A DNA stretch of 64,000 bases from Terriglobia bacterium (GTDB taxonomy: Bacteria; Acidobacteriota; Terriglobia; JAJPHL01; JAPKYU01). Positions 724-6,952 of this stretch are shown here, in pieces. Position numbers and translations under genes: made by a program. The notes below the pieces were generated by a model that saw only the letters and a program-made list of their open reading frames with translations, had not been told where the DNA came from and did not search any database. Each line of letters starts with the position of its first letter. The stretch's first letter is position 1. The stretch lies in contig CBDBKE010000004.1 of assembly GCA_965206645.1 (NCBI GenBank), forward strand, positions 1,728,001-1,792,000. Reading direction: 5' to 3'.

Positions 724-1152
724 TCAGGCCGGCACCCAGCCGCTGGAGGCGGCCAACGCCTCTCCCTTCCGGGGCTTGCGGGAATGCTTCAGCAGCGCCC
801 TGCGGGTAGCGGCCGCGTCCTGCACCACTTCTTCCAACACCGTCAGGTAAGCCAGGAACCGCTCACGGCCTTGTCGGGAGAGGCGGCAAAGTGTCTGCGG
901 GCGCCGGTTCTCAAACCGCTTCCAGACCTCGACTAGGCCCGCCTCGTACAGCACCTGCAGGTGGCGGCTGAGGTTGCCGTCGGTGAGCGCGCAGAGTTCC
1001 TTCAGGTCAGAGAACAGCACGCCGTCCGGGCGAGTGGCCAGAGTGGTCAGAATTCCCAGGCGCGCGCGTTCGTGCAGCAGCCGGTCCAAGCCTTCGTAGG
1101 CAAAGCGTCCGCCGGTCGGTTGGGTTTCAGACTGCTTCCTCTTCCGAGCCAT
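724..1152 (-). CDS. Winged-helix transcriptional regulator (ArsR/MarR-like, HTH_34 type)
   Basis: LDRLLHERARLGIL...FSDLKELCALTDGNLSRHLQVLYEAGLV...GRERFLAYL. Start moved to MARKRKQ (ATG 1152). Confidence 0.85.
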   Translation of the reverse strand: MARKRKQSETQPTGGRFAYEGLDRLLHERARLGILTTLATRPDGVLFSDLKELCALTDGNLSRHLQVLYEAGLVEVWKRFENRRPQTLCRLSRQGRERFLAYLTVLEEVVQDAAATRRALLKHSRKPRKGEALAASSGWVPA

Positions 1153-1756
1153 TTCTCTCCAGATTCCAGTAGAGCACCATCGCGGCTGCCAACTGGCCGA
1201 CGCCGAAGGTTGCCCCCATAACCCACGGTGCCAGCGCCTCCCGTCCGGGCAAGTAGTGCAGGATCGCGGCCCCACACACTAAGTAGTACAGGCCCACCCA
1301 GCCGATGGTTCGCGGCAGGTGACGCCGAGAGGCAAATACGCCCAGGCTGACTAGCATCGCCCACAGGCCCGGCAACAAGGCCACCAAATCGGGGTGCCGC
1401 CAAGTCAGGATCCAGGTCAGCAACGCGCCGGTCGTCAGCGAGGGCAGCAGTTGCCCCACCACGATTCGCGTGGTGGGGCGCCGGTGGGCCGAGGCACAGT
1501 TCAGATAGCCATGCAACATTTGCGCGCCAACGCCGGCCGCGCACAGCACCGCGGCCCCCACCCACAGCATGACGTACCACACAGGCTGAACCACGGGGTC
1601 GCCGGCCAACGTCGGCTGCGCCAGCGCCGCCAGCAGCGCTACTACGCCGGTGGCCGCGGCAGGCACGGCTCGGTAGCCGCGGAAGGTTTCCGCAGTCACC
1701 AGGTGCCCGCGGATCGCGCTGATCTGCTCCAGTGCCTCGTGCAGTTCCGGCGGCAT
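1127..1756 (-). CDS. Polytopic membrane protein (~6 TM), co-transcribed with the regulator
   Basis: Start MPPELHEALEQISAIR at ATG 1756, hydrophobic segments, overlaps the regulator start. The ORF-track extension to 2278 is antisense to the radical SAM gene. Confidence 0.75.
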   Translation of the reverse strand: MPPELHEALEQISAIRGHLVTAETFRGYRAVPAAATGVVALLAALAQPTLAGDPVVQPVWYVMLWVGAAVLCAAGVGAQMLHGYLNCASAHRRPTTRIVVGQLLPSLTTGALLTWILTWRHPDLVALLPGLWAMLVSLGVFASRRHLPRTIGWVGLYYLVCGAAILHYLPGREALAPWVMGATFGVGQLAAAMVLYWNLERNGSEEEAV

Positions 1757-1897: not shown

Positions 1898-3298
1898 ATG
1901 AGTCCGGAAGTCGTTCTCATTTCGACCTACGAGCTGGGGCGCCAGCCCTTCGGGCTGGCTTCGCCCGCCGCCTGGCTGCGACAGGCCGGGGCTTCGGTCA
2001 CCTGCCTGGACCTTTCCCGGGAGAAGCTGCGGGAAGAGCCGGTGCGCTCGGCCAACCTGGTGGCGTTCTATGTCCCCATGCACACGGCGACTCGCATCGC
2101 GGCGCGGGCCGTGGAAACCGTCCGTCGCCTGAACCCGCGCGCGCACCTCTGCTTCTACGGTCTCTACGCGCCGCTCAATGAGCGCTACCTTCGTGGGCTG
2201 GGCGCGGAAACGATTCTGGGGGGCGAGTTCGAACAGGGTATGGTTCGGATCCTCGAGCAGTTGCCGGACGGAACCCATGCGCAGAAAGAGCGTCTAGTCT
2301 CGCTGGCGCGCCAAACTTTCCTCGTGCCGGACCGCAGCGGCCTGCCCGGGTTGTCCTCCTACGCGCAGCTAAGGGACGGCCAGGGGCGGCTGCGCACGGT
2401 CGGTTACACCGAGGCCACTCGCGGTTGCAAGCACCTGTGCCGCCACTGCCCCGTTGTTCCGGTCTACAACGGCGCCTTCCGGGTGGTGCAACGGGACGTG
2501 GTGCTGGAGGACATTCGCCGCCAGGTCGCGGCGGGCGCCGAACACATCACCTTCGGCGACCCCGATTTCCTAAACGGCGTCAGGCACTCGCTGGAAATTG
2601 TGCGAACTCTACACCGCGAGTTTCCCCGGCTCACCTACGATGTGACCACCAAGGTGGAGCACCTGCGGAAGCACGCCGCCGCGCTGCCGGTTCTGGCCGA
2701 AACCGGCTGCCAGTTTGTTACCAGCGCCGTCGAATCGGTGGACGACCGCGTATTGCAGCTGCTGGACAAGGGGCACACCCGCGCCGATTTGTACGACGTC
2801 GTGGCGCTATGCCGGCGCACAGGCCTGGTGCTGGCGCCGACCTTTGTCGCCTTTACGCCGTGGATCACGCTGCGAGGCTACTGCGACCTACTGGCGGTAC
2901 TGGACGAGCTGGAGCTGGTCGAGCAGGTGGCGCCCGTCCAGCTCGCCATCCGGCTGCTGATCCCCACCGGTTCACGGCTGCTGGAATTGGAGGAGGTGCG
3001 GCAGCTCGTCGCTGGCGGCTTCGATGAGGCCGCGTTGAGTTACCGCTGGAAGCATCCCGACCTGCGGGTGGACCGCATGTGTGATCAAGTCCAGCGGGCA
3101 GTCTGGCAGGCTGAAAAGCAGGGTCGCTCGCGGCGGGCAATTTTCTCCCAAGTCTGGGAGCTGGCGCATCAGGCGGCAGGCATTTCTACGCAGGCGCTGC
3201 AAGTTCCCGACCCCTACCAGCGCACTACCGTGCCCTACCTGAACGAGCCCTGGTATTGTTGAGCCGAACCCACCGAAGAGCAGTTTGCTCTTGTATGA
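1898..3298 (+). CDS. CUAEP-tail radical SAM selenoprotein (N-terminal B12-binding-like domain), Sec at TGA 3260-3262
   Basis: CxxxCxxC motif (GCKHLCRHCP). Sequence continues in frame after TGA: PYLNEPWYC-U-AEPTEEQFALV* (stop 3296-3298). Start taken as ATG 1898 because ATG 1865 overlaps the extended -10 TGCTATCAT. Confidence 0.88.
3276..3292 (+). promoter_or_regulatory. Candidate bacterial SECIS hairpin
   Basis: AAGAGC-AGTTT-GCTCTT: perfect 6-bp stem with G in the apical loop, starting 13 nt after the UGA. Confidence 0.65.
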
Positions 3299-3321
3299 AG
3301 CAAGCCTTGTATGAAGCAAGC
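3290..3321 (+). repeat. 16-bp perfect tandem duplication CTTGTATGAAGCAAGC x2
   Basis: Copies at 3290-3305 and 3306-3321, spanning the rSAM stop and ATP-grasp start. Confidence 0.95.
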
Positions 3322-4624
3322 AATGACGCCCCGGCTCCTTCTTCTCGCCACCACCACCGGCTACCAGACGCAAGCGTTTGCCGAAGCGGCGCGTGGCCTG
3401 GGGTTGGAGGTGGTGTTAGGCACCGACCGCTGCCACGTGCTGGAAGACCCCTGGCAGGACGCTGCGCTGCCTCTGCGCTTTGAAGATCCTGCGCACGCGG
3501 CCGATGAGATTTGCCACTACGCCCGCGAGCATCCCATCCAGGCTATGACGGCGGTGGGCGACAAGCCCACAGTGACGGCTGCGGTAGCCTGCCGTTCACT
3601 GGGAATTACCTGGCACAGCCCCGAGGGGGCCGAAGCCTGCCACAACAAGTTCCTTGCCCGGCAGCGGTTCGAGGAAGCGGGGCTGAACGTGCCTGCCTAT
3701 GCCCGCTATTCCACTCGCGACGGGCCGCCTCCGACCGACGGCGGGAGCGTGTCTTGCGTCCCGTTCCCCTGCGTGCTGAAGCCGGTGTCGCTAGCCGCCA
3801 GCCGGGGCGTCATTCGCGCTGACAACCCGGAGCAATTCGCGGCCGCCTTCCACCGCATCGCCGCGCTGCTGGCTAGCCCCGAAATCCAGGTGAAGAAGGA
3901 GGCTGAGACCGAGCAGATTCTGGTGGAGGAGTTTGTTCCCGGGTCCGAATTTGCGGTGGAAGGGCTCATGTGGCGGGGCAGGCTGCGGGTTCTGGCCATC
4001 TTCGACAAGCCTGACCCGTTGGAAGGTCCCTACTTCGAAGAGACAATTTACGTGACGCCCTCGCGACTGCCTGTGAGCGAGCAGGCGGCCCTGACCGAGT
4101 GTTTGGAGCGTGCTGTGCGCGCTCTGGGGCTGTTCCACGGCCCCGTGCACGCCGAGTTCCGCTTGAATGACGGCGGCCCTTGGGTGTTGGATGTGGCTGC
4201 GCGGCCCATCGGCGGCCTTTGCTCGCGCGCCCTCCGCTTCGGTGCGGGTATGTCTCTGGAGGAGCTGGTCATTCTCAATGCCCTGGGCCGGCGCAATGCC
4301 CTGAGCCAGCGCAATGCCCGGGGCGAGTCGCTCGACGGGATTGCCCGGGAAAGTGCAGCGGCAGGGGTCATGATGATTCCCATCCCCGGCGCCGGGGTTT
4401 TCGAGGGAGTGGAAGGGGTGGAAGACGCCTTGCGGGTGCCAGGCGTCGAAGAGGTCCACGTTACCGCCAAGCTGCACCAGAAGCTGGTGCCTTGGCCGGA
4501 GGGCGCCAGCTATCCGGGCTTCCTGTTTGCCCGCGCTTCCTCCCCAGCGGCCGTGGAGGAGGCGTTGCGCGAAGCTCACCGGCGCCTGCGCTTCCGAATC
4601 TCGCCGATGCTCGCGGTTGTCTAA
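3311..4624 (+). CDS. ATP-grasp domain ligase (L-amino-acid-ligase-like)
   Basis: CHNKFLARQRF, FPCVLKPVSLAASRGV, ILVEEFVPGSEFAVEG, GPVHAEFRL, AARPIGG. Confidence 0.88.
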   Translation: MKQAMTPRLLLLATTTGYQTQAFAEAARGLGLEVVLGTDRCHVLEDPWQDAALPLRFEDPAHAADEICHYAREHPIQAMTAVGDKPTVTAAVACRSLGITWHSPEGAEACHNKFLARQRFEEAGLNVPAYARYSTRDGPPPTDGGSVSCVPFPCVLKPVSLAASRGVIRADNPEQFAAAFHRIAALLASPEIQVKKEAETEQILVEEFVPGSEFAVEGLMWRGRLRVLAIFDKPDPLEGPYFEETIYVTPSRLPVSEQAALTECLERAVRALGLFHGPVHAEFRLNDGGPWVLDVAARPIGGLCSRALRFGAGMSLEELVILNALGRRNALSQRNARGESLDGIARESAAAGVMMIPIPGAGVFEGVEGVEDALRVPGVEEVHVTAKLHQKLVPWPEGASYPGFLFARASSPAAVEEALREAHRRLRFRISPMLAVV

Positions 4625-4635
4625 GCGCTGCTTTC

Positions 4636-4914
4636 TCAGCTCTTGGCCTGGGGTGGGACGTAACCGGGTGGGAGGGCGGCTCCTTCGCCAAAAAAGAATT
4701 GCTCCATCTGCCCCTCGATGAGCTTCTGCGCTTCCGGATCGGCCGGGAAGAGCCGGTATTCATTGATGACCATCTTCAGGTGTTCCAGCCACAGCTTCCA
4801 GGCGTCCTGCGAGATATTGTCGTAGACCCGCTGCCCCAGTTCGCCGCTCCAGGGCGGCGCGTCCAGCCCGGGGAGCTCTTTCTGAAACTTAACGCACTTT
4901 ACTTTGTGTGCCAT
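4636..4914 (-). CDS. yggX: Fe(II)-trafficking / oxidative damage protection protein
   Basis: [51 protein letters not shown]...MEQFFFG. Confidence 0.9.
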
Positions 4915-5457: not shown

Positions 5458-6171
5458 ATGAGCGACAGAAAAGAACTGGAGCTTCGCTTCTGTGAGTAGC
5501 TTGGCTTGACCAGGAGGCCGGTGGCAGTGAGCTTTCTCCCCGAGGAACCGACTCAGCTTCCCAGGTTCAGCGGGAGCGAGCCCTCCGGGTGCAGCTTCTG
5601 GCGCCTGGCTGCTGAGGGGCGCACCTTTCACACGGTTCCGGCGGACCACTACAACTGTGCGGTGGGCAGCTACACCCATAACGTCGAGCTTCCGCCGGAG
5701 CGCGCCCGGGAACTGGACGAGACGCTGGGGCTGATGACCTCGGTGGGCTACCTGAGCCTGGACGAGATTCCAAGGATTCCGCGTTTACCCCGGCCGCCGG
5801 CGGCGGTCCTCTATTCGCCGCTGGCCGACGCGCCTATGGCCCCGCAGGTGGTCCTGTTCGCCTGCCGGCCGGCGGCCGCCATGTTGCTCAGCGAGGCGGC
5901 GGCACGCGCCGGTGCGAACTCTTCGCTGCCGGCGCTGGGACGGCCCACGTGCATGGCCCTGCCTGCCGCGCTTTCCGCTGCCGGCGCCGTCACCAGTTTG
6001 GGTTGCATCGGGAACCGGGTATACACGGGGTTGAGCGAAGATGAGTTGTACGTGGTGATTCCCGGTCCCGCCCTGCCGGGTGTAGCCGAGGCCCTGGAAA
6101 CCATCGTCTCCGCCAACCGAAATCTTGCCGCCTATGCCGAGAATCGCCGCCGCGCGCTGGCCTCCGAATAA
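5458..6171 (+). pseudogene. DUF169-family Cys-rich protein with an in-frame TAG at codon 14 (5497-5499)
   Basis: AGGAGG RBS then ATG 5458: MSDRKELELRFCE*LGLTRRPVAVSF...GCSFW...HYNCAVG...RPTC...SLGCIGNRVY. Could be expressed from TTG 5506 or GTG 5527. Confidence 0.7.
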
Positions 6172-6433: not shown

Positions 6434-6952
6434 ATGAGCGAGCTGCACATTCCTGTTCTGGTTCTCAATGCCACCTACGAGCCCATCAACGTCTGTGCCG
6501 CTCGCCGGGCCGTGGTGCTGATCCTGAAAGGGGTTGCCTCCGCTGAGGAGGAAAGCCGGGCTTACTTTCACTCCCCGTCGCGCAGGGTACGTGTGCCCTC
6601 CGTGATCCGTCTATTGGGATACCGGCGCATCCCTTTCCAGGGCCGGGCTCTGTCACGCAAGAACATCCTGATGCGGGACCGCAACACCTGCCAGTTCTGC
6701 GGCGGGGCCTTTCCGGCCTCGGAATTGACGCTGGACCACATTGTTCCGCGCTCGCGGGGCGGCGATTCCAGTTGGGAGAATCTGGTGGCCTGCTGCCATC
6801 CCTGCAACAACCAGAAAGGTGACCGCCTGCCGGAGGAAGCCGGCATGAGGCTCATCGGCCGACCACGCTCCTTCACCCTGCATACCAGCCGCCACCTGAT
6901 GCACCAGATGGGCAGGTCCGACGCCGCCTGGCGGAAGTACTTGTTCTTCTGA
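6434..6952 (+). CDS. HNH endonuclease (McrA-like)
   Basis: [55 protein letters not shown]. Confidence 0.92.

What the first reader, a model, noticed from the sequence alone, without database searches (positions are those of the whole stretch)
1898..3298. Hidden selenocysteine: the radical SAM enzyme ends in ...WYC-U-AEP
Seen: the ORF caller stops at TGT-TGA (3257-3262), but the frame continues GCC GAA CCC ACC GAA GAG CAG TTT GCT CTT GTA TGA, i.e. C-U-AEPTEEQFALV. The later stop forms an ATGA overlap at the junction with the next gene. Knowledge (from memory): a radical SAM family with a CUAEP/CCAEP tail exists, in which vicinal Cys-Sec alternates with Cys-Cys; I know of no established function. 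Standard annotation would truncate the likely functional tail.
Basis: partly seen in the sequence, partly recalled or inferred. Interest (0 to 1): 0.85.

Follow-up and report, generated by a model that had tools for sequence, protein, structure and literature searches.

The report
Selenocysteine-tailed radical SAM enzyme, known family
This gene encodes a radical SAM enzyme whose apparent stop codon is almost certainly read as selenocysteine; the family is already catalogued but has no known function, and it always travels with an amino-acid ligase gene.

Summary
The frame 1898-3298 reads ...EPWYC-TGA-AEPTEEQFALV-TGA.

**Family.** The read-through protein scores 638.6 bits against NCBIfam NF040546, "CUAEP/CCAEP-tail radical SAM (seleno)protein" (cut-off 500), and the match includes the tail. 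So the kind is already catalogued; Haft's 2022 preprint calls it uncharacterized.

**Sec decoding** is well supported:
- selA, selB, selD and tRNA-Sec are in the genome.
- Of 99 distinct homolog tails, 72 have TGA and 27 Cys, all followed by [A/S]EP.
- A hairpin at 3276-3292 is kept in the TGA forms and weaker in most Cys forms (median -10.5 against -4.3 kcal/mol).
- Its loop CAG[T/G]T is fixed in 72 of 72 TGA forms.

One detail fails. The ATG of the "ATGA" is not in the next gene's frame; it sits in a 16-nt tandem duplicate of the junction.

**Added here:**
- Strict co-occurrence with a downstream L-amino-acid-ligase-type ATP-grasp: 26 genomes with both, 0 with the radical SAM gene only, 1 with the ligase only, 34 with neither.
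- Frequent adjacency to YggX.
- An invariant Cys271.

The closest characterized relative is ArsL (288 bits). An ArsL-like mechanism is inferred only, at about 35%.

The parts
1898..3298 (+). Radical SAM selenoprotein gene: 466 residues plus the stop TGA at 3296-3298. Member of NF040546 (CUAEP/CCAEP tail).
   Evidence: 638.6 bits against a cut-off of 500, profile positions 1-467 of 468.
2426..2449 (+). CxxxCxxC motif (Cys177, Cys181, Cys184), the ligands of the radical SAM [4Fe-4S] cluster.
   Evidence: sequence CKHLCRHC. Pfam PF04055 covers residues 173-310. The three Cys are present in 102 of 102 homologs.
2708..2710 (+). Codon of Cys271, an extra cysteine outside the cluster motif that is invariant in this family.
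   Evidence: 102 of 102 homologs. A role as a third ligand together with Cys454 and Sec455 is inferred.
3257..3262 (+). TGT-TGA, coding Cys454-Sec455. The TGA at 3260-3262 is read as selenocysteine.
   Evidence: Homologs at this position: 72 TGA and 27 Cys among 99 distinct tails.
3276..3292 (+). SECIS-like hairpin: stem AAGAGC / GCUCUU and loop AGUUU. The loop G is at +24 and the U at +25, counted from the U of UGA.
   Evidence: The selD gene of the same genome has a hairpin at +17..+33 with loop GGU at +24-26.
3263..3295 (+). Codons of the tail AEPTEEQFALV that follow the Sec codon.
   Evidence: [A/S]EPxxxQ is present in all 103 tails found. E457, P458 and Q462 are conserved in at least 98% of 102 homologs.
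3290..3321 (+). Exact 16-nt tandem duplication of the gene junction. Copy 1 holds the radical SAM gene's stop codon; copy 2 holds the ligase gene's ATG.
   Evidence: period 16, 2.0 copies, 100% match. Diverged copies occur in two congeners.
3311..4624 (+). Partner gene: an ATP-grasp enzyme of the L-amino acid ligase type, 437 aa.
   Evidence: PF13535, PF18603 and PF18130. Closest solved structure is 3VOT, BL00235, at E 5.2e-42. Co-occurrence is shown.
4636..4914 (-). YggX-type Fe(2+)-trafficking / oxidative-damage-protection protein, 92 aa, convergent with the ligase gene.
   Evidence: PF04362 at 123.9 bits. NF003817 at 123.3 bits against a cut-off of 74. Adjacent in 40 of 67 loci.
5506..6171 (+). 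DUF169 protein, an occasional member of the cluster.
   Evidence: PF02596. Present in 10 of 67 loci, and in several of them it lies between the radical SAM and ligase genes. Found in 12 of 61 relatives.

Best explanation
**What is shown or strongly supported.**
- The gene at 1898-3298 encodes a 466-residue radical SAM selenoprotein of the curated family NF040546.
- UGA 3260-3262 is recoded to selenocysteine-455. The agents are tRNA-Sec and SelB, guided by the hairpin at 3276-3292.
- Translation ends at TGA 3296-3298 and gives the tail ...WY-Cys-Sec-AEPTEEQFALV.
- The gene forms a two-gene module with the downstream ATP-grasp ligase of the L-amino-acid-ligase type. The module is usually placed beside the iron-trafficking gene yggX.

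**What is inferred (about 35% for the chemistry).**
- Its closest characterized relative is ArsL. ArsL cleaves SAM to a 3-amino-3-carboxypropyl (ACP) radical and attaches it to As(III) held by its Cys-rich C-terminal tail.
- By analogy, I propose that this enzyme uses its [4Fe-4S] cluster (Cys177, Cys181, Cys184) to make a SAM-derived radical.
- The radical would attack a soft atom, a metalloid or a chalcogen, held between Cys454, Sec455 and the invariant Cys271.
- The product would be a methionine-like 2-amino-4-X-butanoate.
- The partner ligase would then join that amino acid to a second amino acid.
For: **Family membership.**
- NF040546 scores 638.6 bits against a cut-off of 500, over profile positions 1-467 of 468.
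- The gene is the only match over the cut-off in its own genome.

**Sec decoding.**
- selA, selB, selD and tRNA-SeC are present.
- TGA aligns with Cys in homologs: 72 TGA and 27 Cys among 99 distinct tails.
- [A/S]EPxxxQ follows in all 103 tails found.
- On a tree of 102 homologs the Sec/Cys label changes at least 11 times, 7 of them forced by well-supported branches.
- Hairpin pairing on 20 Sec forms is 85.1%, against at most 53.5% with slid partners. There are 15 double-sided changes against 5.8 +/- 2.0 in shuffles, reached by 0 of 500 shuffles.
- Hairpin energy has a median of -10.5 kcal/mol in 72 Sec forms and -4.3 in 27 Cys forms (Mann-Whitney p = 5e-12; relatives are not independent).
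- The loop CAG[T/G]T is fixed in 72 of 72 Sec forms. In the Cys forms the Gln codon is CAA in 7 of 27, one more row reads GAA there, and the next base also varies.
- The peptide over the stem changes (EEQFAL to RDQLVP) while the pairing is kept.
- selD of the same genome has a hairpin of the same geometry.

**Partner ligase.**
- Among 61 relatives: both genes in 26, the radical SAM gene only in 0, the ligase only in 1 (a 200-aa fragment), neither in 34. Five of the 26 have the two genes unlinked.
- The ligase lies in 48 of 67 loci from other species that have enough flank.
- In 10 of 14 genomes tested where it is not adjacent, a 477-641 bit ortholog lies elsewhere in the genome.

**Chemistry.**
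- ArsL (NF040542) is by far the next-best family: 288.4 bits, E 1.1e-85, profile positions 2-409 of 423. The third-best family scores 47.8 bits.
- In ArsL the tail binds As(III), and the enzyme without the tail still cleaves SAM but makes no C-As product (passages of 10.1101/2024.02.01.577332; passages of 10.64898/2026.04.29.721666).
- Cys271, Cys454 and position 455 are invariant in 102 of 102 homologs. That gives three chalcogen ligands, the same number as ArsL's CCxxC.
- The ligase's closest solved relative, BL00235, makes Met-Gly and Met-Met (Table 2 of PMC6920838).
Against: - No direct evidence of selenium incorporation exists.
- No Rfam SECIS family matches.
- RNAalifold on the 20-sequence alignment did not return the hairpin, because its register differs by one base between subgroups.
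- The ArsL score is below ArsL's own cut-off (288 against 450), and the match stops before the RCCLKC tail. The reaction may therefore differ.
- No arsenic genes, methyltransferase, exporter or self-resistance gene are conserved beside the module. The conserved flanks are housekeeping genes: aconitase, G6PD, glucokinase, PGI. This argues against an arsinothricin-like antibiotic pathway.
- Four of the 14 genomes tested showed no ligase ortholog; their completeness is unknown.
- Cys forms occur in genomes that still have selA (G039, G040, G048). Sec is therefore advantageous, not obligatory.
- The similarity of the ligase to BL00235 (E 5e-42) is too distant to transfer substrate specificity.
Confidence: 0.8

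Rival explanations
1. The TGA at 3260 is a true stop. The enzyme ends at ...WYC, either as a Cys-to-stop mutant or as a naturally short form, and the downstream codons are not translated.
For: Table 11 stops there. 119 of the 120 best database entries are annotated that way. No experimental selenium data exist.
Against: The downstream frame is conserved as protein in 103 of 106 loci, and Cys replaces the TGA in 27 distinct tails. A hairpin with compensatory changes and a fixed synonymous G follows the TGA only in the TGA forms. The complete Sec machinery is present. The family profile extends through the tail.
Confidence: 0.03
2. The Cys-Sec tail does not hold a substrate atom. It is a mobile redox or hydrogen-atom-donor arm, a selenenylsulfide pair like the GCUG tail of thioredoxin reductase (recalled). 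It would quench a substrate radical or re-reduce the active site of an enzyme that makes the usual 5'-deoxyadenosyl radical.
For: Vicinal Cys-Sec on a C-terminal extension is the same arrangement as in thioredoxin reductase (recalled, not tested). Sec/Cys interchange is typical of redox-active sites (at least 11 changes). The housekeeping and iron-stress neighbours (yggX, aconitase, G6PD) suit a redox role better than an antibiotic pathway.
Against: The only characterized close relative uses its Cys tail to hold the atom that is alkylated. The invariant Cys271 gives a three-ligand set, which a two-residue redox pair does not need. No substrate for such a reaction is suggested by the neighbours.
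Confidence: 0.25
3. Cys271, Cys454 and Sec455 (plus Cys85) bind a second iron-sulfur cluster or another metal. That cluster is consumed or damaged during catalysis, as in the sulfur-inserting radical SAM enzymes, and YggX or NfuA rebuilds it.
For: Single-copy yggX lies within 3 kb of a module gene in 23 of 26 relatives (read off the coordinates) and in 40 of 67 other loci. In 7 of those loci it is directly upstream on the same strand. A NfuA-like gene (Fe-S_biosyn + NifU) is directly upstream on the same strand in 4 loci; three are titled Latescibacterota (2) and Calditrichia (1), and L072 is titled only 'uncultured bacterium'. Four conserved chalcogen residues lie outside the CxxxCxxC motif: Cys85 in 97 of 102 and the other three in 102 of 102.
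Against: In ArsL, removing the tail does not change the iron and sulfur content. yggX is also present in 21 of 35 relatives that lack the module, so it is not specific. Fe-S helpers beside any radical SAM gene may simply serve its main cluster. I recall no natural Sec-ligated Fe-S cluster.
Confidence: 0.15

Closest known systems
NCBIfam NF040546, CUAEP/CCAEP-tail radical SAM (seleno)protein
   Same: Full-length match above the curated cut-off. It shares the CxxxCxxC motif and the C-terminal Cys-Sec-Ala-Glu-Pro. Sec alternates with Cys among members.
   Different: Nothing that excludes membership. The family has no assigned function: Haft's 2022 preprint calls it uncharacterized (passage read). 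The partner ligase, the yggX linkage, the hairpin and Cys271 described here were not found in print in my searches.
ArsL, arsinothricin biosynthesis radical SAM enzyme (NF040542, RCCLKC tail)
   Same: Closest characterized family: 288.4 bits, E 1.1e-85, over nearly the whole core. Both have a radical SAM core followed by a chalcogen-rich C-terminal tail. In ArsL the tail binds the As(III) that receives the ACP radical.
   Different: The score is below ArsL's cut-off of 450. The tail is C-U-AEP rather than RCCLKC. This family has an extra invariant Cys271, whereas ArsL is reported to have only six conserved Cys. The neighbours are an ATP-grasp ligase and yggX rather than arsM and arsQ. Sec is present.
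Thioredoxin reductase C-terminal Gly-Cys-Sec-Gly tail (recalled)
   Same: A vicinal Cys-Sec pair near the C-terminus of an enzyme, with Cys variants in other lineages.
   Different: Unrelated fold and chemistry (flavoprotein). Here 11 or more residues follow the Sec. The resemblance is recalled, not tested.
L-amino acid ligases (BL00235, BacD) for the partner gene
   Same: The ATP-grasp_4, LAL_C2 and ATPgrasp_N domains. 3VOT (BL00235) matches at E 5.2e-42 and BacD at E 3.7e-11.
   Different: No NCBIfam model reaches its cut-off (best is 95.8 bits against 625). The substrates are unknown. Known ligases of this type are not paired with a radical SAM selenoprotein.
Bacterial SECIS elements (E. 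coli fdhF type, recalled)
   Same: A hairpin starting about 13 nt after the UGA, with G and U in the apical loop at +24 and +25. I recall G23 and U24 for fdhF. The geometry matches that of this genome's selD.
   Different: No Rfam SECIS family matches. The stem is short, 6-7 bp.

Membership tests
NF040546 CUAEP/CCAEP-tail radical SAM (seleno)protein | Whole-protein HMM score at or above the curated cut-off of 500 bits | tested here: met
   638.6 bits, E 5.6e-192, profile positions 1-467 of 468. The six-frame search of the genome gives 632 bits with 1 TGA inside the match.
NF040546 CUAEP/CCAEP-tail radical SAM (seleno)protein | Radical SAM CxxxCxxC cluster motif | tested here: met
   C177-x3-C181-x2-C184. 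PF04055 matches. The motif is invariant in 102 of 102 homologs.
NF040546 CUAEP/CCAEP-tail radical SAM (seleno)protein | C-terminal Cys-(Sec/Cys)-Ala-Glu-Pro tail | tested here: met
   ...WYC-U-AEPTEEQFALV. The same tail is in 24 of 26 and 79 of 80 homologous loci; the misses are loci cut by a contig end, plus L107.
Bacterial selenoprotein (SelB-dependent UGA recoding) | In-frame UGA aligned with Cys in homologs, and coding conservation downstream of it | tested here: met
   72 TGA and 27 Cys tails, with [A/S]EPxxxQ after both.
Bacterial selenoprotein (SelB-dependent UGA recoding) | SECIS hairpin shortly downstream of the UGA, with a conserved G in the apical loop | tested here: met
   Hairpin at 3276-3292: -7.8 kcal/mol, z = -2.71. 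Compensatory changes are present. The hairpin is strong in the Sec forms only and its loop CAG[T/G]T is fixed in 72 of 72. No Rfam family matches.
Bacterial selenoprotein (SelB-dependent UGA recoding) | selA, selB, selC and selD in the genome | tested here: met
Bacterial selenoprotein (SelB-dependent UGA recoding) | Selenium actually incorporated at the position | not testable with these tools
   Needs 75Se labelling or mass spectrometry of the C-terminal peptide.
ArsL (NF040542) | HMM score at or above the cut-off of 450 bits | tested here: not met
   288.4 bits.
ArsL (NF040542) | RCCLKC (CCxxC) C-terminal arsenite-binding motif | tested here: not met
   The match ends at profile position 409 of 423, and the tail here is CUAEP.
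ArsL (NF040542) | Neighbouring arsM methyltransferase and arsQ permease (the arsQML cluster, abstract of PMC8552651 in the listing) | tested here: not met
   The Pfam scans of the neighbouring ORFs in the window, and of the conserved neighbour clusters, show a ligase, YggX, DUF169, aconitase, G6PD and others. None is a methyltransferase or permease.
ArsL (NF040542) | SAM cleaved to an ACP radical plus methylthioadenosine | not testable with these tools
   An enzymology question. It is the key unknown for the proposed mechanism.
L-amino acid ligase (partner gene 3311-4624) | ATP-grasp fold with the ligase-specific N- and C-terminal domains | tested here: met
   PF13535 at 119.8 bits, PF18603 at 54.5 bits and PF18130 at 34.7 bits. 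3VOT matches at E 5.2e-42 over residues 47-422.
L-amino acid ligase (partner gene 3311-4624) | ATP-dependent dipeptide formation from free amino acids | not testable with these tools
   Needs an enzyme assay.

The most novel reading that the evidence does not exclude
A widespread, unrecognized two-enzyme pathway of soil and groundwater bacteria. The public protein collection holds thousands of clusters, and the family occurs in Acidobacteriota, Methylomirabilota, Chloroflexota and other phyla.

In this reading, an ArsL-like radical SAM selenoenzyme forges a carbon-heteroatom bond (C-Se, C-As, C-Sb or C-S). It does so by adding a SAM-derived ACP radical to an atom clamped between Cys, Sec and Cys271. 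A dedicated L-amino-acid ligase then turns the new methionine-like amino acid into a dipeptide.

The housekeeping and iron-stress gene context suggests a protective or cofactor-like metabolite rather than an antibiotic.
Probability: 0.25. Interest if true: 0.8.

Novelty: new member of a known kind. Interest (0 to 1): 0.42.

Why it matters
**For annotation.** 119 of the 120 closest public proteins are cut at the Sec codon. These include entries that already carry the family name. Most records therefore lack the two or more residues that define the family, and probably lack its active site.

**For biology.** The family is abundant.
- 25 of 61 genomes sampled from this class hold it.

It still has no assigned function. 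ArsL has since been shown to make a C-As bond with an ACP radical on a Cys-tail-bound arsenic. Together with the strict pairing with an amino-acid ligase shown here, that gives a concrete and cheap hypothesis to test for the role of a rare vicinal Cys-Sec motif.

Tried and rejected
- **Rfam scan** of 3150-3450 at E up to 10. Only two chance-level hits (mir-645, TarB) and no SECIS family.
- **RNAalifold** on the 20 Sec-form tails returned a weak different helix (-2 kcal/mol), not the hairpin. The stem register differs by one base between subgroups (loop of 5 against loop of 4). I therefore counted a named helix and folded each sequence on its own.
- **Fused forms.** The 'longer' search gave 8 proteins, and 5 of them hold both radical SAM and ATP-grasp domains.
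  - In all 5 the junction reads as out-of-frame garble.
  - In 4 of them the region of the tail reads as out-of-frame garble. In 2 of these (P0124, P0127) the WYCCAEP tail is recognizably read one frame off. In P0130 the tail is in frame but the middle of the protein is garbled.
  - I treat them as neighbours joined by indels, not as true fusions. They show adjacency only.
- **Loci without a ligase in the flank.** I scanned 10 adjacent ORFs against Pfam and found no common alternative partner. The hits were GFO/IDH/MocA, an AAA/MoxR-like protein, NfuA-like, a molybdopterin oxidoreductase, glutamate-synthase-like, a deacetylase and Ldi.
- **selA among relatives** as a test of the Sec reading. 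19 of 20 genomes with the TGA form have selA, but so do 49 of 61 overall and all three intact Cys-form genomes. The test does not discriminate. G033 (95% complete) has a TGA form, and no selA was found there at E <= 1e-60.
- **Solved structures.** Nothing close to the radical SAM protein (best E 3.7e-4).
- **Literature searches.**
  - 'CUAEP' gave 2 papers, of which 1 is relevant.
  - 'CCAEP' gave 10 papers, of which the same 1 is relevant.
  - selenoprotein + radical SAM + Acidobacteria + selenocysteine gave 0.
  - ArsL + selenocysteine gave 97 papers; none of the 10 listed is relevant.
  - ACP radical + radical SAM + ATP-grasp gave 0.
The ArsL alignments in the supplements of the two ArsL preprints could bear on whether ArsL lacks a counterpart of Cys271. 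I rely on the main-text statement of six conserved cysteines.
- **Not done:** no structure or complex model of the read-through protein, and no look at RNA-seq or sequencing runs.
Full report
**1. The observation.**
The window reads TGT-TGA at 3257-3262. The same frame continues GCC GAA CCC ACC GAA GAG CAG TTT GCT CTT GTA and ends with TGA at 3296-3298. With TGA read as U, the ORF from ATG 1898 gives a 466-residue protein ending ...NEPWYCUAEPTEEQFALV. Table 11 ends the ORF at 3262.

The longest ORF starts at GTG 1394. The family profile and the homologs begin at the ATG at 1898, so 1898 is the likely start.

One detail of the finding fails.
- The ATG inside 'ATGA' at 3295-3298 is in frame 1.
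- The next gene, 3311-4624, is in frame 2.
- The ATGA lies in the first copy of an exact 16-nt tandem duplication, CTTGTATGAAGCAAGC x2, at 3290-3321.
- The second copy holds the ATG that is in frame with the ligase.
- Diverged versions of both copies are present in the two congeners.

A plausible reading, which is inference, is that an ancestral overlapping stop/start junction was duplicated.

**2. What it is.**
The read-through protein matches NCBIfam NF040546, 'CUAEP/CCAEP-tail radical SAM (seleno)protein'. This is an equivalog model. The score is 638.6 bits against a cut-off of 500, over profile positions 1-467 of 468, so the tail is part of the match. Pfam sees only the radical SAM core.

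Haft's 2022 preprint (10.1101/2022.07.06.499078; I read the passage) lists this family among the few selenoproteins with a Cys-Sec dipeptide. It says its structure and function are not well known. The kind is therefore already catalogued, and the window's gene is an ordinary member.

**3. Is the TGA read as Sec?**

*Machinery.*
- selA scores 553.5 bits.
- selB scores 309.5 bits, and 342.8 with its C-terminal piece.
- selD scores 354.1 bits and itself has one in-frame TGA.
- A tRNA-SeC with anticodon tca is present.

*Homologs.*
- Among 61 relatives, 25 have a match over the cut-off.
- Of 26 loci read, 20 have TGA, 4 have Cys and 2 are cut by contig ends.
- Among the 80 best loci from other species there are 56 TGA, 23 Cys and 1 with no tail found.
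- All tails continue [A/S]EPxxxQ.
- On a FastTree tree of 102 homologs, built without the tail columns, the Sec/Cys label needs at least 11 changes. Seven are forced by well-supported branches. The shuffled mean is 23.3.
- Cys forms are nested among Sec forms. The direction of change is not shown.

*RNA signal.* A hairpin follows the TGA at +17 to +33, which is 3276-3292 in the window. The stem is AAGAGC/GCUCUU and the loop is AGUUU.
- It folds at -7.8 kcal/mol, z = -2.71, and 3 of 200 shuffles fold as well.
- On 20 Sec forms the named helix is 85.1% paired, against at most 53.5% when the partners are slid.
- It has 15 cells with changes on both sides, against 5.8 +/- 2.0 in shuffles. None of 500 shuffles reaches that.
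- Subgroups swap AAGAGC/GCUCUU for GGGACC/GGUCCC. The peptide then changes from EEQFAL to RDQLVP while the pairing is kept.
- Over 99 distinct tails, the 26 nt from +13 fold with a median of -10.5 kcal/mol in 72 Sec forms and -4.3 in 27 Cys forms (p = 5e-12; relatives are not independent).
- The loop letters CAG[T/G]T are fixed in 72 of 72 Sec forms. In the Cys forms the Gln codon is CAA in 7 of 27, one more row reads GAA there, and the next base also varies.
- A synonymous site that is fixed only where the TGA is present is evidence for an RNA-level signal.
- The selD gene of the same genome has a hairpin at +17 to +33 with loop GGU at +24-26, the same geometry.
- I recall that E. coli fdhF has its loop G and U at positions 23 and 24. 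I did not check this here.

*Evidence against.*
- No Rfam SECIS family matches.
- RNAalifold did not recover the hairpin.
- There is no experimental evidence.

I put Sec decoding at about 0.9.

**4. Surroundings.**
The next gene, 3311-4624, is an ATP-grasp enzyme with the N- and C-terminal domains of L-amino acid ligases. Its closest solved relative is BL00235 (3VOT) at E 5.2e-42. A review lists the products of BL00235 as Met-Gly and Met-Met (PMC6920838, passages and Table 2).

*Co-occurrence of the two genes among 61 relatives.*

| Radical SAM gene | Ligase gene | Genomes |
|---|---|---|
| present | present | 26 |
| present | absent | 0 |
| absent | present | 1 (a 200-aa fragment in G035) |
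| absent | absent | 34 |

- The pattern is patchy across families (for example 3/6, 1/7, 2/6, 1/6) and identical for both genes.
- In five genomes the two genes are unlinked (G023, G039, G042, G046, G049).
- In 67 loci from other species with at least 1500 nt of downstream flank, the ligase is present in 48.
- Fourteen genomes had no ligase in the flank. In 10 of them a 477-641 bit ortholog lies elsewhere.
- Four of the 14 showed none: Nonomuraea had only weak hits, and three MAGs of unknown completeness had no hit.

*yggX.* A YggX-type Fe(2+)-trafficking gene lies at 4636-4914 on the minus strand.
- It is adjacent in 40 of 67 loci. It is usually convergent after the ligase. In seven loci it is directly upstream on the same strand.
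- Among the relatives, reading the coordinates, the single yggX copy lies within 3 kb of a module gene in 23 of 26 genomes.
- yggX is also present in 21 of 35 relatives without the module, so it is not specific.

*Other neighbours.*
- A NfuA-like gene is directly upstream in four loci. Three are titled Latescibacterota (2) and Calditrichia (1); L072 is titled only 'uncultured bacterium'.
- DUF169 (5506-6171) occurs in 10 of 67 loci, sometimes between the two genes. It is in 12 of 61 relatives.
- The other conserved flanks are aconitase, G6PD, glucokinase, PGI, a HAD hydrolase and Lgt. These are housekeeping synteny.

**5. How it most likely works.**

*Shown.*
- The radical SAM motif C177/C181/C184, the extra Cys271, Cys454 and position 455 are present in 102 of 102 homologs. 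Cys85 is present in 97 of 102.
- The closest characterized family is ArsL: 288.4 bits, E 1.1e-85, profile positions 2-409 of 423. The third-best family scores 47.8 bits.

*From the ArsL literature (passages read).*
- ArsL cleaves SAM to methylthioadenosine and an ACP radical and forms a C-As bond.
- Its RCCLKC tail binds As(III).
- The tail-less enzyme keeps its iron-sulfur content and still cleaves SAM, but makes only 2-aminobutyrate.
- ArsL proteins have six conserved cysteines, three for the cluster and three in the tail.

*Inferred (about 35%).* Here Cys454, Sec455 and Cys271 would form the equivalent three-ligand site for a soft atom. A SAM-derived radical would attack that atom. The methionine-like product would be taken by the ligase.

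*Against an arsinothricin-like pathway.* No methyltransferase, exporter or resistance gene is conserved nearby. The context is housekeeping.

*Rivals.*
- A thioredoxin-reductase-like redox or hydrogen-donor tail (0.25).
- A second, consumable metal cluster rebuilt by YggX or NfuA (0.15).
- A true stop codon (0.03).

**6. Comparison and novelty.**
The gene meets every sequence-level criterion of NF040546 and of a SelB-dependent selenoprotein. It fails two defining criteria of ArsL, the score and the tail, so it works perhaps like ArsL but is not an ArsL.

The Sec finding itself is known. The following items were not found in print by my searches:
- the defined hairpin with its synonymous-site constraint;
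- the strict pairing with an amino-acid ligase;
- the yggX/NfuA linkage;
- Cys271.

These would need experiments to mean anything.

**7. Practical note.**
119 of the 120 best public proteins end at ...W[Y/F]C. These include three entries named with the family name.

**8. Limits.**
- Supplements were closed.
- Relatives are not independent, so the p-values overstate.
- The completeness of genomes reached through loci is unknown.
- The 'fusion' proteins in public data are indel artefacts.

Noticed in passing
window 3290-3321: An exact 16-nt tandem duplication (CTTGTATGAAGCAAGC x2) spans the junction between the radical SAM and ligase genes. Copy 1 carries the stop codon and copy 2 carries the start codon. 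Both copies, slightly diverged, are in the two congeners, where the usable start codon differs (MKQAT.. against ..KKQAMT..).
   Followed up: partly
G000:C2:761488-762411 (locus L010, TGA at locus position 1531): The selD gene of this genome is itself a selenoprotein (...KASG-U-ASKLSP). Its hairpin lies at +17..+33 after the UGA, the same geometry as in the radical SAM gene.
   Followed up: yes
window 724-1520, minus strand: A winged-helix regulator (HTH_34, weakly ArsR/SmtB-like at 30.5 bits, below the cut-off) is preceded by what looks like a small membrane protein. That protein is the C-terminal part of the over-long ORF 1127-2278. The pair is divergent from the radical SAM gene and is conserved only within the genus.
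   Followed up: partly
G000:C3:150177-150836: A second DUF169 gene, 92% identical to the one at window 5506-6171, lies elsewhere in the genome.
   Followed up: no
window 6434-6952: An HNH endonuclease ORF (PF14279, PF01844) follows the DUF169 gene. It may be a mobile or stand-alone nuclease.
   Followed up: no
protein P0125 (public metagenome protein, 865 aa): An AMP-binding (adenylate-forming) domain is joined in one ORF to a Sec-form radical SAM protein of this family, which is cut at ...WYC. It may be another carboxylate-activating partner in place of the ATP-grasp, or an ORF-calling artefact.
   Followed up: no
loci L021, L022, L024, L026, L034 and many of L063-L141: A subgroup has a longer tail (20-35 residues after the Sec). 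The middle of the tail is variable, but the extreme C-terminus is conserved as ...(A/S/G/T)F(V/I). This suggests that the C-terminal carboxyl end docks somewhere.
   Followed up: no
locus L042 / L062 (G052:C6:536030-538529): In one relative the radical SAM gene is decayed (3 TGA and 1 TAA inside the match, with the tail in another frame) and the adjacent ligase is shortened to 364 aa. The pair may be decaying together.
   Followed up: partly
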